DNA of 64,000 nucleotides. It comes from Octopus sinensis (lineage: Eukaryota). The notes beneath the pieces are model-generated. The model made no database searches, was not told the DNA's origin, and saw only the letters and a list, made by a program, of their open reading frames with translations. The stretch spans positions 6,138,001-6,202,000 of the forward strand of contig NC_043005.1 in assembly GCF_006345805.1 (NCBI RefSeq), in the 5' to 3' direction. This document shows, piece after piece, positions 22,817-45,500 of the stretch (positions are counted from its first letter, which is position 1; each line of letters starts with the position of its first letter). Position numbers and translations under genes: made by a program.

Positions 22817-24914
22817 AGTTGTTAAGTCTCTGTCCAGTCATAGAGTGACCAATGGTTTTGCATCCACAAAGGGCTTAGACCCCTGAACGTTGTATCAGAC
22901 TCAAAAGCTGAAAACCTTCAATGTTCACTTCCCAAGAAACTGTCAGCTTCACCATCTTTACAACCTTCCCAAAGTTCTTCAGTTTTAGAGTCTGACGAGA
23001 CATTCACGGGGCTAAGCCGTTTATGGATGTGAAACCACTGGTCACCCTATGACCAGACATAGTCTTAACTACATATAAATATGTTACTGCTCTATACTTA
23101 AGGGTGAGCTTCTTTTTGGGATATTGTTAAGTCCCATTATGACGATGTATTTTGTCGTCTCTGCAGGACTGGTGCAAACTGCGTACCTTCACCAATTGAC
23201 ATTACTGACTGAGTCAGTCCACTATTTATTAGTAGTGGACCAGCCCACTTCTCACCTGGGGATGTCCGCCAGAACAGATATATGATACACTGACAATCCC
23301 ACCCATGCTAGCATGGAAGGCAGACATTGAACGATGAAGATGACAATGATACATACAGGGTGCGGCGAATGAATTGTCGTCTAATTTACGCAAAAATGAG
23401 AATAACACTGACATCTCATTTAAACAGATATTATTTACCAAAAGTATATAAAAATATCTTGAGATACTAAAGAGTAAATTTATTCAATAAAATCGCCATT
23501 GGTTTCAACCATGGCTTCCAGATGACTTTGGAATCTCCTGTAACACTTGGTCTCAGGAGTACATACCTTGCTGTAGGCTCTGTCTTAGCTCTACCACCAC
23601 CTCAAGGTAAATGAGTGATTTGATTGATTGACTGATTGATTGACATACCTGTATAGCCATTTCCATCTAAATCCATGCCACCTGATAAAGAATATCCAAA
23701 TGTTCTTAGACCGTTTTTCAAGTTGCTGGCATCAATCACCTGAAAATGAATAATAAAACTGTTAATTAAAAGAAAAAAAGAAAACTGGTGAACGCAACAT
23801 ACATGTGGACACACGGACACACACACAGAGGCATAAAGAGGAAAGGAATAAAATTATTGAAGATATTTAAGTATATAGCTTCCCCCTCCCCCCACTATGT
23901 CTTGTATATAAATTCCATCAGGGTTTGACTTCATCTTTTAACTCTCCAGGGTTTGATGGAATAAGTACAAGTAATACACTAAGGCATATTTCAAATGGCT
24001 GACTGAAAAGTCAATCGTGTGTGTGTGTGTATGTATACACACACACACATATATGTATGTATATATGTAGGCATAGGCATGGTTATATGGTAAGAAGCTT
24101 GCTTCCCAATCATATTGTTCTGGGTTCAGTCCCACTGCAGGGCACCTTGGGCAAGTGTCTTTTACTATATATAGCCTTAAGCTGACCAAAACCTTGTGAA
24201 TGGATTTGGTAAATGGAAACTGAAAGAAGCCTGACATATATATATATGTGTGAGTGTGTGTGTTTGTCTATTTTCTGTGTCTTTATGGCTTTGTCCCTAC
24301 CACTGCTTGACAACTGGAGTTGGTGTGTTTATGTCCCCATAACCTAGAGGTTCAGCAAAGAGACTGATAAAATAAGTACCAAGCTTTAAATATAAAGTGA
24401 TGCACAGTTCCAGCACATGCCCCATAATGCTACAACTTCTACTTCCATGCTGGTGTGGGTTGGATGGTTTGAGAGGATACCATGGGTCCAAGGACTGCAT
24501 TGTGCTCCCATATCTATGTATGCGTGCACACATGTACTGTCCCTGTTAATTTAATTAGCAAGAAATGGCTATTATGTAATTATATTAATAATATTTCTTC
24601 CAAATTTTGTTACAAGGCCAGCAATTTTAGTGGAAGAGGGCTTTGCTGATTTCATCAACTAATTTAATGTTGCCCTAATAATAATCTTTTCTTCTATAGG
24701 AACAAGGCCTGGAATTTTGGTGGAGAGGGCTAGTCATTTACATTGGCCCTAATATTCAACCGGCACTTATTTTATCAAACCTGAAAGGATGAAAGGCCAA
24801 GTTGACCGTGGCAGAGTTTGAACTCAGAATGCAGTGAGTTAGAAGAAATAACACTATAAACTACTATTTAATACTATTTTGTCTGGTGAGTAACAATTTT
24901 GCCAACTCACCAAC

Positions 24915-25602: not shown

Positions 25603-25650
<48 letters not shown>

Positions 25651-26310
25651 GAAATATTAAAATTACTAAGTCTCTCTAAAAGAGAACAACGGCAGCGTTC
25701 CCGGAAAATATTAGTTATCGCCATACTAATATGGCATTCTTATAAAAATAAGAATAAAGCTGACCGCTTATTAGCTCCATGAGGCCATCGCCTTAAGTTA
25801 GCTATTTGATACACAAACTGTATCCATATAACCTTTGAACAAGGGAGGTCAGTCGCTCCACACTACTTGGCCGGCAGCTACAGACGCGTTTCGGGGTATT
25901 GCCCCTTTTCAATGCAGCGTAGCCAAACCAGTAGGTGTCGCTTCTGACAATCTCTGTTCAAAGGTTTTATTTACCTAGCTTCGGTGGAATACATCCACTT
26001 GTTTTCAATAATAGAAATATTAAAATTACTAAGTCTCTCTAAAAGAGAACAATGGCAGCGTTCCCGGAAAATATTAGTTATCGCCATACTATATGGCATT
26101 CTTATAAAAATAAGAATAAAGCTGACCGCTTATTAGCTCCATGAGGCCATCGCCTCATGTAGTGTGGAGCGACTGACCTCCCTTGTTCAAAGGTTATATG
26201 GATACAGTTTGTGTATCAAATAGCTAACTTAAGGCGATGGCCTCATGGAGCTAATAAGCGGTCAGCTTTATTCTTATTTTTATAAGAATGCCATATTAGT
26301 ATGGCGATAA

Positions 26311-26396
<86 letters not shown>

Positions 26397-27128
26397 ATAT
26401 ATATATGTATAATTAGAGATTGTGTTAACCTCATGAAGGGATGGTTTCATCCAAGGGAATACTGGTTCAATACCTAGTAGTTTTTGGGAATTAATTTCCT
26501 TAAAATAATAGGTGCATATATAAAAACATATAGTTTATAGTCATATAAAAGAAGACAAAGAAAACAGAGACTGAGAAGTTAATAATTGTTTGTTATCAGC
26601 AGCGAATTAATCATCTTTACTTACAGCTGTTTCAATTAACATATATATATATCATCATCATTTAACGTCCGCTTTCCATGCTAGCATGGGTTGGACGATT
26701 TGACTGAGGTCTGGCGAACCAGATGGTTGCACCAGGCTCCAAGCTTGATCTGGCAGAGTTTCTACAGCTGGATGCCCTTCCTAACGCCAACCACTCCGAG
26801 AGTGTAGTGGGTGCTTTTTACGTGCCACCTGCATGGGGGCCAGTCAGGCAGTACTGGCAATGACCTTGCTCGAATCTTTTTACACGTGCCACCGACACAG
26901 GTGCCAGTGAAGTGACGTTGGTAACGATCACGCTCGAATGGTGCCCTTTTACGTGCCACGGATACGGAAGCCAGTTGGCCGCTCTGGCAACGATGACGCT
27001 CGGATGGTGTTCTTGACACCCTACTAGCACAGGCATGAGTGCCAGTAAGGCAACGCTGGCAACGATCATACTCAAATAGCCGCTCTGTCAATGATCACAC
27101 TCGTATGGTGCTCTTTGCACCCCGCTAG

Positions 27129-27177
<49 letters not shown>

Positions 27178-30100
27178 TGAAGGCATGTAGCTTAGTGTTT
27201 ATTCGGTTCATGATCATAAGGCCATGAATTCAATTACTGGCAGTGTGTTGTGTTCTTGAGCAAGGCACACTCAATGTTGTCTCCAAGAGAGTACCTGTTT
27301 TTATATCTACAAACATACATTTGGTTATTTTGTTTGTCACCTGCAAAAGCCTTTCCTAAACCAAGGATTAAGCAAATCCAAAGAGACAATATTCTCAGCG
27401 TTGAATTATTGGATCCTTTATTTTTGATTGTCTTGAAAATGTTGGATCCCAGAAGCTGGGAACATGAGATTGTTGGCCTCTGAAGCTACTTACCTGGGCA
27501 GGTTCAATTTTGACACCCTTCACAGATCCATGGTAAATATACACGGCACCTTTGCCATCTTTACCTCCATAGGGAGCAGAAGTGGCAAAATCTGGAAAAG
27601 TAAAAAAAAAAAGTTATTAGTTATTGTAATTGTCAAGATCATGATGATAATGATGATGATGATTAGCATTGTTGCCATTGTGGTCTTCCCCATCATCAAC
27701 ATCATCACTGTTGTCATTATCACCCTAATGATGATGATCGCTAATGTTACCACTATCATCATCATCATCGACATCATCTTTACAAGCACCACCACCATCC
27801 TCACCATCACCATCATCATTACCATCACCATCACCATAATTATCAAAATTGTCATTGTTGTTGCTGTGATCATCATGGTCATTATCAGTACCATCACCAT
27901 CATCTTCAATATCACTATTGTTATCAATATTGTCATCATTATTGCTGTGACCATTATTATCACCATCAACGACTCTTGACCGTATCATCATCATCATAGG
28001 TATCACTTTGCATCCGTTTTTTCCATGCTGGCATAAGATTGCCAGAGACTTCTTGAAGCAGCCCTGCACAGTAACTGGTTATATTCCAGGAACCAAATCC
28101 GATTTATTTCTTCCAACTAAGACACTTGATTCTATGTTTTCACCTATCAAAGCATCAAAGAGCCAAACTTTTTTTGTTTATGTAAGACTCAATCCAATTT
28201 CATTGCTGCTCAAAGACAACACACAAAATACATCATTTTAAAGTTCATCTTTCCATGGTTGAATGAGTCAGATTTATTGAGGCAAATTCTGTATGACTGG
28301 GGGCCCTTCCTGTCACCAACCCTCAACAGGTTTCTGTTAAGGTTATATTTCCCCATGGCCTGACATATTTTCTTTGAAGATTGGAAAGATATGACACCAT
28401 TTGTATGACAATGCAAACATACACAAATAAAAATGCATTCACACCCTACCACAACATGCATAAACAAAACGGCTGGAACTCACCATTGTAGCCATCAAAG
28501 TTGATATCCTTCAATTTGGCAAACGCCCAACCGAATCTACCCTTGATTGTTTTGCCTACAAGGATGTCTTTGTTGTTTTGGTGGAATGTATGCTGCAAGG
28601 AGATAGATTAGTAAATGTTTAATTAGATATACCCATTAAAATAAGGATTATAAAAATTTTCTGATACCAGAAATTGTATCACAGAATCCTTTGGCTCTAT
28701 GACACAACTTTCTGTTTTTAATACTTTTGTTACCGTATTTCTGCGGAGATGTTCTGTGTTTCTTTCAATTAATTTTAAACATAAAGAATTTAGTAAAATA
28801 ACTTAGTTATCATTAAGCTAGTGCAGGTGTTTTCAACCAGGGTTCAGCCAGTACAGTCCAGGGGTTCCACAAGAAGTTACAAAAACTGCTAAAATCGGCA
28901 GTAATTTTTAATTTTCCTGTGCAGATATGTGTGCATAAGACTATTAAATTATTGCACAGGGGTTCCTCGAGCCAGTGGAATGTTTCCATGGGGTTCCGCT
29001 CCAGCAAAAAGTTTGAAAAGCACTGAGCTAGTGTTAGGAACATGAATTGTAACTAAAGTTTGGTGGAAGATTTTAATTCAGAACTTTTGAATATAAGACT
29101 TTTGTACTACAGAGCCAGAGACAGTTACAGGTGGGATGGTATCAAAAGGGTTAAACCAATGTAACTCTTTAGCATTCAGATATCTCTGTCCCATGTAATA
29201 CTCATTTATTCAAATGGATATCAATTGATTATGCATTATCTTGTAGCTTCAAGTTATTGATTATTTTTAAAATGACATTGTAGGGGAAGTGTGAGAGAGC
29301 CAGATTTGGTCAGTCAGAAAATAAAACAGGTAGGTTATTTTGGCCGGCTTGAATGTTAAAGGGTTAAATTAAAACTTAAGGTAGCAAACTGGCAGAATTA
29401 TTAGTACATGAGATAAAATGCTTAGTGGAATTTTCTCTCACTCTTTACATTTTGAGTTCAAATTGCACCAAGGCCAATTTTGCCTTTCATCCCGTCTGGG
29501 TTCATAAAACAAAGAAACCATCACATATGCTAGAATGAATGGTTTGCTGTTGTCTACTCCACAAAATTATGAAGTAAAAGATTTATTTAGAAAGTTTGGT
29601 GTTGCTTCCTGACAGCTAGCTCAACCAAAATACATCAAGCTGAGTTTCTCAATGAGATATGTATCATCATTATGGTCATCCCTCAAAGTATATGTAATCT
29701 GGTTGACTGACCAGGCAGTTCCCGTTGGGCTTCCCAAGAAGAAGAAACACAAGCCCTGGGTGACGAAGAAGGTTAAACGAGAACGTCGACTCAGAGATAT
29801 TGCTTGGGCTGAATTCAAAAATCTGGATTCGACTGCAGCTTTTGAGGTGTACAAAACTCAACGAGACCGAGCCGTGAAAATCGAAAAGAAAGAACGCTTC
29901 AGTTATGAATACAAAATCGCGGCAAATGCCAGTAGCAATCCAAAAACCTTCTTTGCCCATGTCCAGCGGAATTCCTGCTTGAACAACCAGATTGCAACGT
30001 TGGTAGACTCAACAGGCGTATCGATTGAGGACCCTTATCAACAGAGCCAATTATTTGCCGAGGCTTTTTCAACTATTTTCAAACAAGATGATGGTCGTGA

Positions 30101-32035
30101 ACCCTCTCCATTTGATAGATCGGTACCTCCAATGCTTCGATTGGTCATCACGTGGGACGAAGTCAAACGTGTTATTCAAGGCCTCGATGTCAACAAGGGT
30201 CACGGCCCTGACGGCATACACCCATGGGTTATCAAAGCGTTGGCTCCGGTCATCTGCGAGCCCTTAACACGTCTATTCAATATGTCATTGGCGACGGGTG
30301 TTATACCTGCAGACTGGAGAACAGCGATAATCTGCCCAATTTTCAAGAAAGGGAGCTGCGAAGACCCGCTTAACTACCGACCGGTTTCCCTTACATCAAT
30401 AATCAGCAAGATGTTCGAAACCATCCTTAAGAAAAGTATGATGCTCCACCTCCTAAACACAGCCTCTATCTCTGATTCCCAGCATGGCTTCGTGCCGAAG
30501 AGATCATGCTTGACCAACTTACTAGTAATGGAAGAATTGGTGACGCGCATCCTCGATGATAGTGATGCTGTTGACATCGTTTTATTGGACTTTGCCAAAG
30601 CTTTTGACTCGGTAAACCACCGCCTATTACTTGTCAAGCTTCAAGCATATAGTTTCCATCCGGATATTGTACGATGGGTTGGTGCCTTCCTCTCAGATCG
30701 CTCCTTCCAAGTCCAAGTTAATGGTTCACGGTCCGACGTCTCCAGTGCGAGCAGTGGCGTGCCTCAAGGTTCAGTGCTTGGGCCTAGTCTTCATAAATGA
30801 CTTGCCCGACGACCTCACGCAACACACCCTTCTATTTGCCGACGATATCAAACTGGTCGCTCCTCGCAGTGATATAGAGGATCTTCGTCGATGCCTCCAC
30901 CAAATTTGGAAGTGGTCTAACGATTGGGACCTGTGTCTGAACGTGTCAAAGTGCTGTCATCTGCCTGTTGGCTCTCCTCCTGCAACTCAACTTGATTTCG
31001 AGCCGGGTCGTCTGCTGCTGGAGAGGACCGATCAGGTAAAGGACCTGGGTATCTTGGTGGATTCCTCCTTTTCGCCTTCGCCCAGTGCGTCCATGCTGCC
31101 AACAAAGCACGCGGAATTCTGTTCTTGATTCGACGGTCATTCGGAATGCTCACGGCAGCCATATTCCTACCACTCTATGTCACGCTGGTGAGACCCATAT
31201 TGGAGTATGGGATTCAAGCCTCTTCTCCTTATCTCCTCAAAGACATACAGCATCTCGAAAGAGTCCAGAAGCTGGCTACCCGCATGGTTCATGGTCTCAA
31301 AAATTTGTCCTACGAAGAAAGGCTGAGGACGCTCGACCTTTATTCTCTTGAAAAACGCCGCCGCCATGGTGATCTCATTCTCGCCCACAACATCATAAGC
31401 AGAAAGTGTAACCTCTCGAAAGAGCTGTTCTTCACTCCTGCTCCAGAGCGTCGGCTGCGGGGTCATTCCGAAAAGCTCTACCTGCGACGATTTCATCTCA
31501 ATCGAAGGAGAGGAGCTTTCTCCGTCCGGGTTGCGGATCCGTGGAACAAGCTGCCAGACGATTTTGGATAAGGTTCATTTTTTCAAGAATCTCTCAGAAA
31601 ATTAAAATTTATCTTATATAGGTGCGTTTTCAAACTTCTTTTTTATAAATATATACCCACTCGTATGCCACCTACACTTTATATATATATATATATATAT
31701 ATATAAAGTTAATCCAAACAAGAAAACACAAAAAAACACAACAACGCGAGGACGTGGAACAAATATAGTATTATTGGACGCTCAGGAAAGAAGGGAAGAA
31801 GGAGGGTTTAACGTTTCGAGCGGAGCTCTTCGTCAGAAACATAGGAGAAGGAAAGATCCCGAGAAGGGAAGACAGAGGAAAAAAAATCGCCAACGGTACA
31901 CACGAGGTCACACATACATGCACATCCATACACATGCATGCACATACATATACATGCATACATACATACAAATACATACATTCATACACATACATACATA
32001 TGTGCATGCATATACATACTCACACATACACAACA

Positions 32036-42506: not shown

Positions 42507-42578
<72 letters not shown>

Positions 42579-45500
42579 CGCATGGCTCAGTGGTTAGAGC
42601 GTCGAGCTTACGATCGTGAGGTTGTGAGCTCGAATCCCGGACCGGGCTGCGTGTTGTGTTCTTGAGCAAGGCACTTTATTTCACGTTGCTCCAGTTCACT
42701 CAACTGTAGAAAGGTGAAGGCGCATGGCTCAGTGGTTAGAGCGTCGAGCTTACGATCGTGAGGTTGTGAGCTCGAATCCCGGACCGGGCTGCGTGTTGTG
42801 TTCTTGAGCAGGCACTTTATTTCACGTTGCTCCAGTTCACTCAACTGTAGAAAGGTGAAGGCGCATGGCTCAGTGGTTAGAGCGTCGAGCTTACGATCGT
42901 GAGGTTGTGAGCTCGAATCCCGGACCGGGCTGCGTGTTGTGTTCTTGAGCAAGGCACTTTATTTCACGTTGCTCCAGTTCACTCAACTGTAGAAAGGTGA
43001 AGGCGCATGGCTCAGTGGTTAGAGCGTCGAGCTTACGATCATGAGGTTGTGAGCTCGAATCCCGGACCGGGCTGCGTGTTGTGTTCTTGAGCAAGGCACT
43101 TTATTTCACGTTGCTCCAGTTCACTCAACTGTAGAAAGGTGAAGGCGCATGGCTCAGTGGTTAGAGCGTCGAGCTTACGATCGTGAGGTTGTGAGCTCGA
43201 ATCCCGGACCGGGCTGCGTGTTGTGTTCTTGAGCAAGGCACTTTATTTCACGTTGCTCCAGTTCACTCACTGTAGAAATGAGTTGCGACGTCACAGGTGC
43301 CAAGCTGTATCGACCTTTGTCTTTCCCTTGGATAACACTGGTGGTGTGGAGAGGGGAGGCTGGTATGCATGGGCGACTGCTGGTCTTCCATAAACAACCT
43401 TGCCCGGACTTGTGTCTAGGAGGGTAACTTTCTAGGTGCAATCCCATGGTCATTCATGACCGAAGGGGGTCTTTTCCCCTTATATATATATATATGTATA
43501 TATATAAAATTAAATAAGGGTAGAAATTGAGATTAATCAATTAAAACCAGTGGCCTAGCATATTTAAAAGAATCAGAAGATTAAAAATTTTTTTACATAC
43601 AAAATTTAGAGGCCTGACCACTAAAAAAGTGGACAGCCTGTATGCTAGATATAGATGTCAAAATCGCCATTTTCCACAAAGAATGTGTTCTCAAGAATGT
43701 TGAGAACACATTCTTCATGGAAAATGGCGATTTTGACGTCTATATCTAGCATACAGGCTGTCCACTTTTTTAGTGGTCAGGCCTCTAAATTTTGTATATA
43801 TGTATATATATGAATATATGTATGTATGTATATAAAATCATTGTCATGTTAACATGGGTTGGGACAAAGGTTACAGCATGATGCCTTTCATGTCACCAAC
43901 ATTTCCCTGTTGTTTTTTTTTTTTCAAGTAAGGTAGTTTTATTCCATTGGTCTTTATACAGGAGATACAGTACCGGAGAAGTAAAGAGGACGTTGCTGTC
44001 ACCCAGTCCATATTATGGGGAGTAACAAGGAACTAAACATTCAAGAATATATTGACATACAATTTTTTTTAATTCTAAAATTACACACACACACATGCAC
44101 ACACATATGCACACTCACAAACACACACACACACACACTCATGCACAAAATTTTAATACAAGAAGATGGCATTAACAGACTTTAATCCATATTACTACAA
44201 CTGTTTCTTTGCATTAGTATCAGTTGTTAATTGCTGAGTGCTTCATATATTATACACATTATTGCATTAATAGTTGTGGCCTGCACATCTTCAGGTGAGT
44301 GTATATAAAACACTCAACAATCACCAGCTAACACCAATGCACAGAAACAATTGTATTGATTTGGATTAAAGCCTGTTCATTCCATCTTCTCGTATAGTAA
44401 TTTCTTTGTATGAATTCTACTGATATTCATGGATTTCCACATGTAGATCCAGTAAAAGGAAAATTCCTACACTATGATAATATATGGTAGCCAATAACCA
44501 TGGTGAAGCTTTATAAAGCATGCTTTAAGGTTATTGCTGAGAGGATATTATACACACCCACATATAGGGTGCAATGGGTAAATTATCACTATTCTATAAT
44601 TTTAGTTTCGTGCATGCACATTGTTTTTAAGTCTGTCGACCACACAGTATAGTAGGGTCAGTTGAGAAAAACAGCACCATGATGCAATTCACTCTGCCCA
44701 AAATTTGGAAACGACATGCTGTACTGCTTGGCATTCATGCCAGAAGCTCCAATATGAACATTTCAGAGTGTTTGGATGTCAATCTGAGGACATGTACAGA
44801 GAGTGATAAAATCAAACATCCAGTGACCATCATGGTGTTTGGAGTGATCAGTAGTGATCAGTAGTGATGTTATGCATCCATTCATCTTCCCACACTGCTT
44901 CAAACTGAACACAGAGGCCTACATCAAGTGCCTGGTGGAGGTAGTGCTGCTTTGGGTCAAGAGGGTGACTGCTCAAGACCCTATGTCTGGCAACAGGGCT
45001 CTACACCATGCCACACAAGCAGGAGAACCCAGTCGTGGGTGTCAAACAATTTCTGCGACCACATCACCCCTAACAACTGGCCACCTAACACTCCAGATTG
45101 CAACCCCCTTGATTATTATGTGTGGGGCATAGTGGAGCAAGAGGCCAACAAAACTCCTTGTAACACCAAAAATGAACTGAAGGCAAGGATTATGGCAGCA
45201 TTCACCAACTTAAACAAGGAGACCATCCAGAAGAGTTGCAGGAGATTCCAAAGTTGTCTGGAGGCCATAGTTGAAGCCAATGACAATTTTATTGAATAAA
45301 TTTACTCTTTAGCATTTCAAGATATTCTTATGTAAATTTGGTAAATGTATCTGTTAAAACGAGACATCAGTGTCATTTTCATTTTTGCATAATTTAGATG
45401 ACAATTCATTCACCACACCCTGTATATATATATGCACAATTTTTGAAATAAAATTCTAAACTTTATAAATATAAAGGATGAAAAGTCCTTCCTTAGCTTA

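What the first reader, a model, noticed from the sequence alone, without database searches (positions are those of the whole stretch)
25645..26317. Candidate cephalopod retrozyme: 363-nt monomer with an intact U3-A8 variant hammerhead, sense to the integrin pre-mRNA
Seen: between two (TA)n tracts lie about 1.4 tandem copies of a 363-nt unit (25645 and 26008) plus a 159-bp inverted copy of part of the unit. The minus strand reads GCUGCA-UUGAAAA-GGGGCAAUACCCC-GAAACGCGUC|UGUAGC. Established: this is the layout of a minimal type I hammerhead. CUGANGA to UUGAAAA swaps the C3-G8 tertiary pair for U3-A8, and palindromic stem III is typical of the dimer-cleaving hammerheads of Penelope-like elements and metazoan non-LTR retrozymes. 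Inference: a young non-autonomous ribozyme retroelement that may yield ~363-nt linear or circular RNA. Whether this family is already described I cannot tell.
Basis: partly seen in the sequence, partly recalled or inferred. Interest (0 to 1): 0.8.

Follow-up and report, generated by a model that had tools for sequence, protein, structure and literature searches.

The report
Ribozyme retroelement targeted by site-specific LINEs
This intron carries one copy of a young 363-base repeat whose predicted self-cleaving (hammerhead) ribozyme core occurs over a thousand times in the genome, and at other copies a LINE retrotransposon inserts at one exact spot of the repeat, likely its transcription start, where it would borrow a predicted snRNA-type promoter.

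Summary
A 363-nt unit with a U3-A8 type I hammerhead lies between (TA)n tracts, sense to an integrin-alpha intron. The genome has 1,148 exact copies of the core; stems covary with an older subfamily about 75% identical. 36 of 50 sampled loci are inverted twin-arm insertions, 33 of them with a 63-nt tail on one arm only: a Penelope-like-element signature. So this is a non-autonomous Penelope-type retrozyme, a known kind, and U3-A8 is already described. This copy has one hammerhead, so it cannot release a unit-length circle in cis. The new part lies outside the window. A young L1-group LINE inserts at unit position 63 with a 17-bp duplication (36 of 37 copies found by a LINE-only query). Sister LINEs hit the matching site of two other hammerhead repeats (24 of 26, 8 of 8) and +1 of U1 and U2 genes. 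A matrix built only from U1/U2 upstream regions scores best 61-63 nt upstream of that site in every family tested. Likely reading: retrozymes driven by an snRNA-type promoter, parasitised by promoter-capturing LINEs. Cleavage, circles, start site and the mobilising Penelope partner are not shown.

The parts
25645..26007 (-). Whole 363-nt retrozyme unit (family A); unit position 1 = 26007
25988..26005 (-). snRNA-type proximal-sequence-element-like motif (unit 3-20), about 62 nt upstream of the LINE site; promoter function predicted
   Evidence: best site in the element for a matrix built only from U1/U2 upstream regions, 0 of 2000 shuffles; coordinates
25929..25945 (-). LINE target (unit 63-79), duplicated as a 17-bp TSD at occupied copies; empty here; likely transcription start at unit 63-65
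25877..25918 (-). Type I hammerhead, U3-A8 core, 6-bp stem I, 4-bp stem II, palindromic short stem III; predicted cut between 25883 and 25882
25830..25966 (-). Long hairpin (unit 42-178) with the hammerhead at its tip; would join the two ends of a cleaved unit-length RNA
   Evidence: z -6.1; pair 48/172 is C-G in 79 and T-A in 23 of 103 units
25645..25707 (-). 63-nt tail (unit 301-363) present on one arm only
26008..26155 (-). 5'-truncated second unit (215-363), no hammerhead
26156..26317 (+). Inverted arm (unit 139-300) ending at the short 3' end, no hammerhead
25606..25647 (.). (TA)n target, left
26314..26411 (.). (TA)n target, right
27494..27592 (-). Integrin-alpha exon upstream of the host intron (FG-GAP repeat)
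   Evidence: (E 8e-6 to alpha-V 357-389)
23647..23739 (-). Integrin-alpha exon downstream of the host intron
   Evidence: weak, E 0.07-0.1, next residues of the same chains; splice signals

Best explanation
This is one copy of a young, protein-free 363-nt repeat with Penelope-type inverted insertions in (TA)n, likely transcribed from its own predicted snRNA-type promoter, predicted to self-cleave at a U3-A8 hammerhead and likely mobilised in trans by a Penelope-like RT/GIY-YIG, and at other copies an L1-group LINE inserts at one exact site that is likely the repeat's transcription start. Steps: (1) inferred: Pol II starts at unit 63-65 from the PSE-like motif at unit 3-20. (2) inferred: read-through multimers are cut after unit 125, probably through paired palindromic stem IIIs of two hammerheads; the 126->125 monomer closes into a long hairpin and can circularise. 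(3) architecture shown, enzyme inferred: both target strands are primed on one template haplotype, at the AT-rich ends 300 and 363; the two cDNA arms run through the unit repeatedly and join at short microhomologies. (4) shown: LINE-A inserts at unit 63 with a 17-bp duplication, independently, into several subfamilies; sister LINEs use the matching site in families B and C and +1 of U1/U2. Inferred: the site is kept because it puts the LINE under the host promoter, with the endonuclease reading the local sequence. The window copy has one hammerhead and an empty LINE site and is most likely a passive intronic insertion.
For: 1,148 exact cores, control 0. Covariation with an older subfamily: 94.5% of cells paired, 7 of 16 pairs with changes on both sides, 0 of 500 shuffles reach the covariation score, slid controls at most 0.116 against 0.271. 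36 of 50 loci inverted; 33 of 36 with ends at ~300 and ~363; 69 of 87 arm ends in (TA)n; 12-14-bp TSD-like repeats at four non-(TA)n sites, matching the PLE description in PMC8557442. Opposite arms differ by 0.99% against 2.39% between loci. LINE-A: 36 of 37 copies found by a LINE-only pattern end at the site; census 40 of 46; LINE haplotypes cross host subfamilies. LINE-B 24 of 26, 1 at U2 +1; LINE-C 8 of 8; one LINE-A relative at U1 +1. PSE-like score is best at -61 to -63 in 6 of 6 retrozyme upstream regions. 4 of 86 LINE-free arms begin at 63-65, p 0.006, post hoc.
Against: No cleavage, circle or start site was measured. Arm 5' ends are not enriched at the cut site (3 of 86, p 0.23; 7 of 138, p 0.03 in a wider post hoc set). 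The monomer MFE does not form stem III. Minimal PLE hammerheads cleave poorly in vitro (PMC4209133), and 1 of 9 Xenopus dimers cleaved (preprint). No autonomous PLE sharing sequence with the unit was found. The PSE matrix was seeded on a hexamer noticed by eye and rests on 9 upstream regions. The old-subfamily rows were chosen by a pattern fixing the core, so core invariance there is by construction, and related sequences inflate covariation. 5 of 46 LINE-A 3' ends are off target, and locus L008 mixes two haplotypes.
Confidence: 0.75

Rival explanations
1. The hammerhead is weak or idle in vivo; the family spreads from linear read-through multimers of source arrays, without cleavage or circles, and long arrays also grow by unequal exchange after insertion.
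For: No clear pile-up of 5' ends at the cut site. Higher-order periods of 4 (L087) and 2 (L095) fit local duplication. Low in vitro activity is reported for similar motifs.
Against: Stems I, II and the palindrome covary between subfamilies. The closing stem pair 48/172, which spans the start site and so needs a multimer or circle, is compensated in 102 of 103 units. 107 of 113 young units keep all 12 core positions, in loci chosen for one exact core.
Confidence: 0.25
2. The units are 3' ends (pseudo-LTRs) of an autonomous Penelope-like element whose full-length copies were missed, not an independent non-autonomous family.
For: The architecture is that of truncated PLE insertions. A resident Neptune-like PLE carries a U3-A8 hammerhead-like motif with a palindromic stem III in its terminal repeats. 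Genome searches score only the best candidates.
Against: Arms continue from unit 363 into unit 1 for up to 10 units. PLE protein hits in 4 of 54 stretches lie beyond the element's ends and belong to other families. The intact PLE has no DNA similarity to the unit.
Confidence: 0.1
3. The LINE-repeat association comes from one or a few insertions that were amplified as a composite with the retrozyme (hitchhiking), not from repeated site-specific insertion.
For: 35 of 38 resolved on-target copies are full length. One locus has five LINE-bearing units on two arms.
Against: Those five copies differ by 1.0-4.8 substitutions per kb, like unlinked copies, and near-identical LINEs sit in different host subfamilies. 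Most arrays mix occupied and empty units. 5'-truncated copies have their own junctions (L203, L225). The A/G allele at position 63 matches on both sides in 32 of 32 full-length copies flanked by units. Two further LINE lineages repeat the pattern in other families.
Confidence: 0.04
4. The LINEs find +1 by being tethered to the snRNA promoter complex, or by pairing of a host-derived, ribozyme-trimmed RNA trailer with the target, rather than by endonuclease sequence preference plus selection.
For: Targets differ in sequence (families A, B, B', C, U1, U2) yet all lie 59-64 nt downstream of the PSE-like motif. A full-length off-target copy carries the first 17 nt of U1 as a leader, so LINE RNA can include host sequence.
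Against: Four copies of the U1-associated sub-lineage landed at ATAC/ATAT look-alike sites away from snRNA genes, which fits sequence recognition. LINE-A was never seen in families B or C, which share the promoter type.
Confidence: 0.3

Closest known systems
Metazoan non-LTR retrozymes (PMC7229834, passages seen; bioRxiv 10.64898/2026.07.22.740005, abstract to discussion read)
   Same: Protein-free tandem units of about 300-360 nt with a type I hammerhead, TSDs longer than 4 bp, proposed non-autonomous derivatives of PLEs.
   Different: No cephalopod among the species named in the text read; U3-A8 minimal core rather than canonical; dispersed inverted twin-arm insertions; parasitised by site-specific LINEs.
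Penelope-like elements, Neptune/Cercyon type, and their minimal hammerheads (PMC4209133 parts 1-2 of 4; PMC8557442 passages)
   Same: U3-A8 covariant core (Schistosoma Cercyon), palindromic stem III, partial tandems, inverted 5'-truncated arm, tail on one end, microsatellite bias.
   Different: No ORF; tail is 63 nt rather than 30-40; no autonomous partner with shared sequence found.
Newt satellite 2 (one passage and the reference title in PMC2220036; the original paper is not held)
   Same: Hammerhead tandem repeat with an internal snRNA-type Pol II promoter.
   Different: Here the promoter is only predicted, in a mollusc-type genome, and recurs in several diverged families.
Tx1-clade sequence-specific LINEs: Tx1, Keno, Tx1-Mar (PMC4494074 passages and section 15; PMC4640811 passages)
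   Same: APE-RT-zinc-finger ORF2, gag-like ORF1, strict insertion into multicopy RNA genes or other transposons, tandem insertions around a regenerated TSD.
   Different: Targets are hammerhead retrozymes and exactly +1 of U1/U2 (that Keno/Utopia use an internal U2 site is recalled, not read). Three lineages each keep to their own retrozyme family. Tx1 membership not tested by phylogeny.

Membership tests
Non-LTR retrozyme | Type I hammerhead in each repeat unit | tested here: met
   Sequence, covariation, 107 of 113 units keep the core; Rfam models do not detect it
Non-LTR retrozyme | Short tandem unit without protein-coding frame, many genomic copies | tested here: met
   363 nt, arms up to 10 units, 1,148 exact cores; longest stop-to-stop frames over the element are 84 aa or less
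Non-LTR retrozyme | TSDs longer than 4 bp when visible | tested here: met
   12-14 bp at L102, L104, L114, L006
Non-LTR retrozyme | Self-cleavage of the RNA | not testable with these tools
   needs in vitro transcription
Non-LTR retrozyme | Accumulation of unit-length circular RNA | not testable with these tools
   only assembled contigs were available
Non-autonomous Penelope-like element | Partial tandem plus inverted 5'-truncated arm, tail at one end only | tested here: met
   36 of 50 inverted; 33 of 36 with ends ~300 and ~363
Non-autonomous Penelope-like element | Microsatellite insertion bias | tested here: met
   69 of 87 arm ends in (TA)n
Non-autonomous Penelope-like element | Terminal sequence shared with an autonomous RT/GIY-YIG element | tested here: inconclusive
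   No match in 30 PLE-bearing stretches or beside 30 old-subfamily loci; search not exhaustive (2,610 candidates, 150 scored)
Tx1 clade (the LINE) | L1-group structure: gag-like ORF1, ORF2 with APE, RT, zinc finger | tested here: met
   best solved relative human L1 ORF2p E 3e-66, R2 E 4e-23
Tx1 clade (the LINE) | Sequence-specific insertion into a multicopy target with fixed TSD | tested here: met
   36 of 37; 24 of 26; 8 of 8
Tx1 clade (the LINE) | RT phylogeny inside Tx1 | not tested
   No named Tx1 reference among the 65 homologues or six clusters looked up
snRNA-type promoter (newt satellite 2-like) | PSE about 60 nt upstream of the start | tested here: met
   Matrix from U1/U2 only: best site at -61 to -63 in 6 of 6 regions, 0-7 of 2000 shuffles
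snRNA-type promoter (newt satellite 2-like) | Mapped capped start and SNAPc dependence | not testable with these tools
   indirect only: 4 of 86 arms begin at 63-65

The most novel reading that the evidence does not exclude
A clade of L1-group LINEs has specialised on position +1 of snRNA-type promoters and has moved between U1/U2 genes and three different hammerhead retrozyme families in one genome, one LINE lineage per family: a three-tier system (Penelope helper, ribozyme circle, LINE) in which the LINE takes the host promoter, has its read-through 3' end trimmed by the host ribozyme 62 nt downstream, and is steered by the promoter complex or by that RNA trailer.
Probability: 0.3. Interest if true: 0.82.

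Novelty: new variant of a known kind. Interest (0 to 1): 0.62.

Why it matters
The retrozyme alone is a new member of a known kind. Two things add value. First, a young, near-identical family whose two arms come from one template haplotype and end 63 nt apart is a clean substrate for the open question of how Penelope-like enzymes make tandem/inverted insertions, which PMC8557442 names as unresolved. Second, three closely related LINEs (LINE-A and LINE-B ORF2 are 86% identical) with different strict targets at the same functional position make target switching testable by endonuclease, promoter and trailer swaps, and intact copies exist (L186, L218). I found no report of LINEs targeting hammerhead retrozymes or +1 of snRNA genes; Repbase and most subscription papers were not searchable, so the families may already be catalogued.

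Tried and rejected
Rfam gave no hammerhead hit. A canonical C3-G8 version in the same context gave 1 match with a different stem II, not followed up. A GIY-YIG-like frame beside L029 proved to be a decayed Neptune-like copy, not a partner. The intact Neptune-like PLE (L051, 685 aa) and the L074/L185 family share no sequence with the unit. An early idea that junctions at unit 64 were splice acceptors was dropped once the LINE and its TSD appeared. One search used a structure string out of register (44% paired) and was discarded; one search is the corrected count. In alignment A1 one row (L171) was on the wrong strand and A1 was not used for counts. Expression: no RNA holder listed; contigs of four runs guessed to be RNA cover the unit but cannot show transcription, ends or circles. 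Near-identical LINE contigs exist in coded organisms D and E, but no contig bridging a junction was among those shown, so conservation of the target in other species is open. The distant LINE family (7 loci) has varied flanks and no Rfam hit at the four loci scanned. No LINE-A sequence lies in the 30 old-subfamily loci. Earlier findings of this scan: nothing. Coats 1994 is not held. Preprint supplements were not seen and may list further species.

Full report
Observation. The element is as described: a 363-nt unit (26007->25645), a second piece (unit 215-363) and a 162-nt inverted arm (unit 139-300) between (TA)n tracts. The minus strand carries a type I hammerhead layout with U3-A8, at the tip of a long hairpin (z -6.1), with the predicted cut between 25883 and 25882. 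Rfam does not detect it. Minus-strand exons on both sides match consecutive integrin-alpha segments (E 8e-6, weak), so it is sense in an intron.

Family. A DNA search gave 968 candidates, 40 scored, 191 matches; the 150 listed are 93-100% identical. The exact 30-nt core occurs 1,148 times, the reversed control 0 times. An older subfamily (195 pattern matches) aligns over the whole unit at about 68-80% in the 30 loci fetched. On 25 rows (3 young, 22 old; 8 of the 30 old loci were left out, mostly for truncation) the hammerhead stems are 94.5% paired, 7 of 16 pairs change on both sides, and 0 of 500 shuffles reach the covariation score. The old rows were picked by a pattern that fixes the core, and relatedness inflates such counts. 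Contigs from coded organisms A-E hold the unit, one of which may be the source species.

Insertion anatomy. I fetched 54 stretches around the first 100 core matches in genome order and set aside 4 that hold a LINE. Of 50 loci, 36 are inverted twin arms with 3' ends outward, 13 single arms, 1 complex; 33 of 36 end at unit ~300 on one arm and ~363 on the other; 69 of 87 arm ends run into (TA)n; 24 of 36 inversion points overlap by 1-16 nt; four non-(TA)n sites show 12-14-bp TSD-like repeats. This is the tandem/inverted/tail pattern that PMC8557442 gives for Penelope-like elements (passages). Opposite arms differ by 0.99%, loci by 2.39%, and 10 rare variants (seen in at most two loci) are shared across arms, so both arms normally derive from one template haplotype; L008 is an exception. 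Only 17 of 50 loci have two hammerheads on one arm; the window copy has one. Arm 5' ends are not clearly enriched at the cut (3 of 86).

Partner. A GIY-YIG fragment beside one locus led to an abundant Neptune-like family with an intact 685-aa RT-CxxC-GIY-YIG frame, (TA)n ends and a U3-A8 hammerhead-like motif in its terminal repeats. It shares no detectable DNA with the unit, so it is only a candidate helper. U3-A8 is described for Schistosoma Cercyon PLEs (PMC4209133, parts 1-2 read). That animal retrozymes are non-autonomous PLE derivatives is argued in a 2026 preprint on 31 vertebrates, 3 insects and a coral (abstract to discussion read).

The LINE. Three loci had the same 2.8 kb joined to unit 64. 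It is a 5,345-bp L1-group LINE with an intact copy (ORF1 493 aa with zinc knuckle; ORF2 1,132 aa with APE, RT, zinc finger). A pattern from its 3' UTR alone found 37 copies; 36 end at the retrozyme site. Over all stretches held, 46 3' junctions divide into 40 in family A, 1 at U1 +1 and 5 elsewhere. The duplication is unit 63-79 (17 bp); the A/G allele at 63 matches on both sides in 32 of 32 full-length copies flanked by units; two loci have LINE-TSD-LINE tandems; 35 of 38 resolved on-target copies are full length. LINE haplotypes cross host subfamilies and the five copies in one array differ like unlinked ones, and most arrays mix occupied and empty units: independent insertions, not hitchhiking.

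Sister lineages. A protein search (20 of 150 listed places fetched) showed LINEs about 83% identical at DNA level ending 29-33 nt upstream of hammerhead-like cores in other repeats with the same inverted architecture. LINE-B: 24 of 26 3' ends at the family B site, 1 exactly at +1 of a full U2 gene, 1 other. LINE-C: 8 of 8 at the family C site (most of these cores read C instead of U at position 4, so activity is doubtful). A sub-lineage 92-97% identical to LINE-A sits at U1 +1 (L280), carries the first 17 nt of U1 as leader (L227) or lands on ATAC/ATAT look-alikes. In a tree of 22 copies the two U1-associated copies branch next to or below the family A copies (midpoint root only, so the direction of the switch is not established). 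A more distant family (7 loci) has varied flanks.

Promoter. Upstream regions of 30 U1-like and 25 U2 loci collapse to 17 distinct sequences, 9 of which share a motif starting at -59 to -64. A matrix from these 9 alone scores best at -61 to -63 from the LINE site in the window unit, two old copies and families B, B' and C (0-7 of 2000 shuffles); I seeded it on a hexamer seen by eye. Four of 86 LINE-free arms begin at unit 63-65 (p 0.006, post hoc). Newt satellite 2, a hammerhead repeat, is reported to use an snRNA promoter (passage in PMC2220036). T-runs in the sense strand (unit 260-264) argue for Pol II over Pol III (inference).

Verdict. The repeat works like a non-LTR retrozyme mobilised in Penelope fashion and meets every membership feature that sequence can test except a shared autonomous partner; activity is untested. 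Tx1-clade LINEs that target snRNA genes and other transposons are known (PMC4494074; PMC4640811). LINE lineages that each keep to the likely start site of a different hammerhead retrozyme, and to +1 of U1/U2, did not appear in my searches, nor did a cephalopod retrozyme (PMC7229834 has no cephalopod term); Repbase was not searchable. New variant of a known kind; interest 0.62, carried by the LINE-promoter-retrozyme link rather than by the hammerhead itself.

Noticed in passing
window 25708-25869 with 26156-26317: In the integrin pre-mRNA the inverted arm would form a 162-bp duplex with the unit, looping out the hammerhead; a possible editing or small-RNA substrate (inference).
   Followed up: no
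window 42575-43278: Five head-to-tail copies of a 142-nt unit, 99% matches, tRNA-like in its first half by eye.
   Followed up: no
window 31836, minus strand: A canonical-core hammerhead-like motif of another repeat type.
   Followed up: no
window 29613-31571, plus strand: Broken reverse-transcriptase frames of a LINE, longest 395 aa.
   Followed up: no
L235 (G000:C26) and L074:2090-2180: A copy of the distant LINE family ends just upstream of a canonical hammerhead in another PLE family's terminal region, downstream of a TATA-like stretch; the start-site habit may be wider than snRNA-type promoters.
   Followed up: partly
G000:C15:28.98-29.18 Mb (L276-L295): U1 gene cluster with LINE insertions at +1, including a LINE-17-bp-LINE tandem.
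   Followed up: partly
L087 and L095: Higher-order periods of 4 and 2 units within long arms: multimeric circular template or later local duplication.
   Followed up: partly
L059:4070-4350: A retrozyme arm is joined directly to an inverted piece of a decayed Neptune-like PLE lying 1.5 kb away.
   Followed up: partly
L218, L220, L222, L223 LINE junctions: In sister LINEs the upstream and downstream TSD copies differ at 1-2 positions, which may mean the upstream copy comes from the RNA leader.
   Followed up: no
L008: One locus mixes two subfamily haplotypes, in contrast to the usual homogeneity.
   Followed up: no
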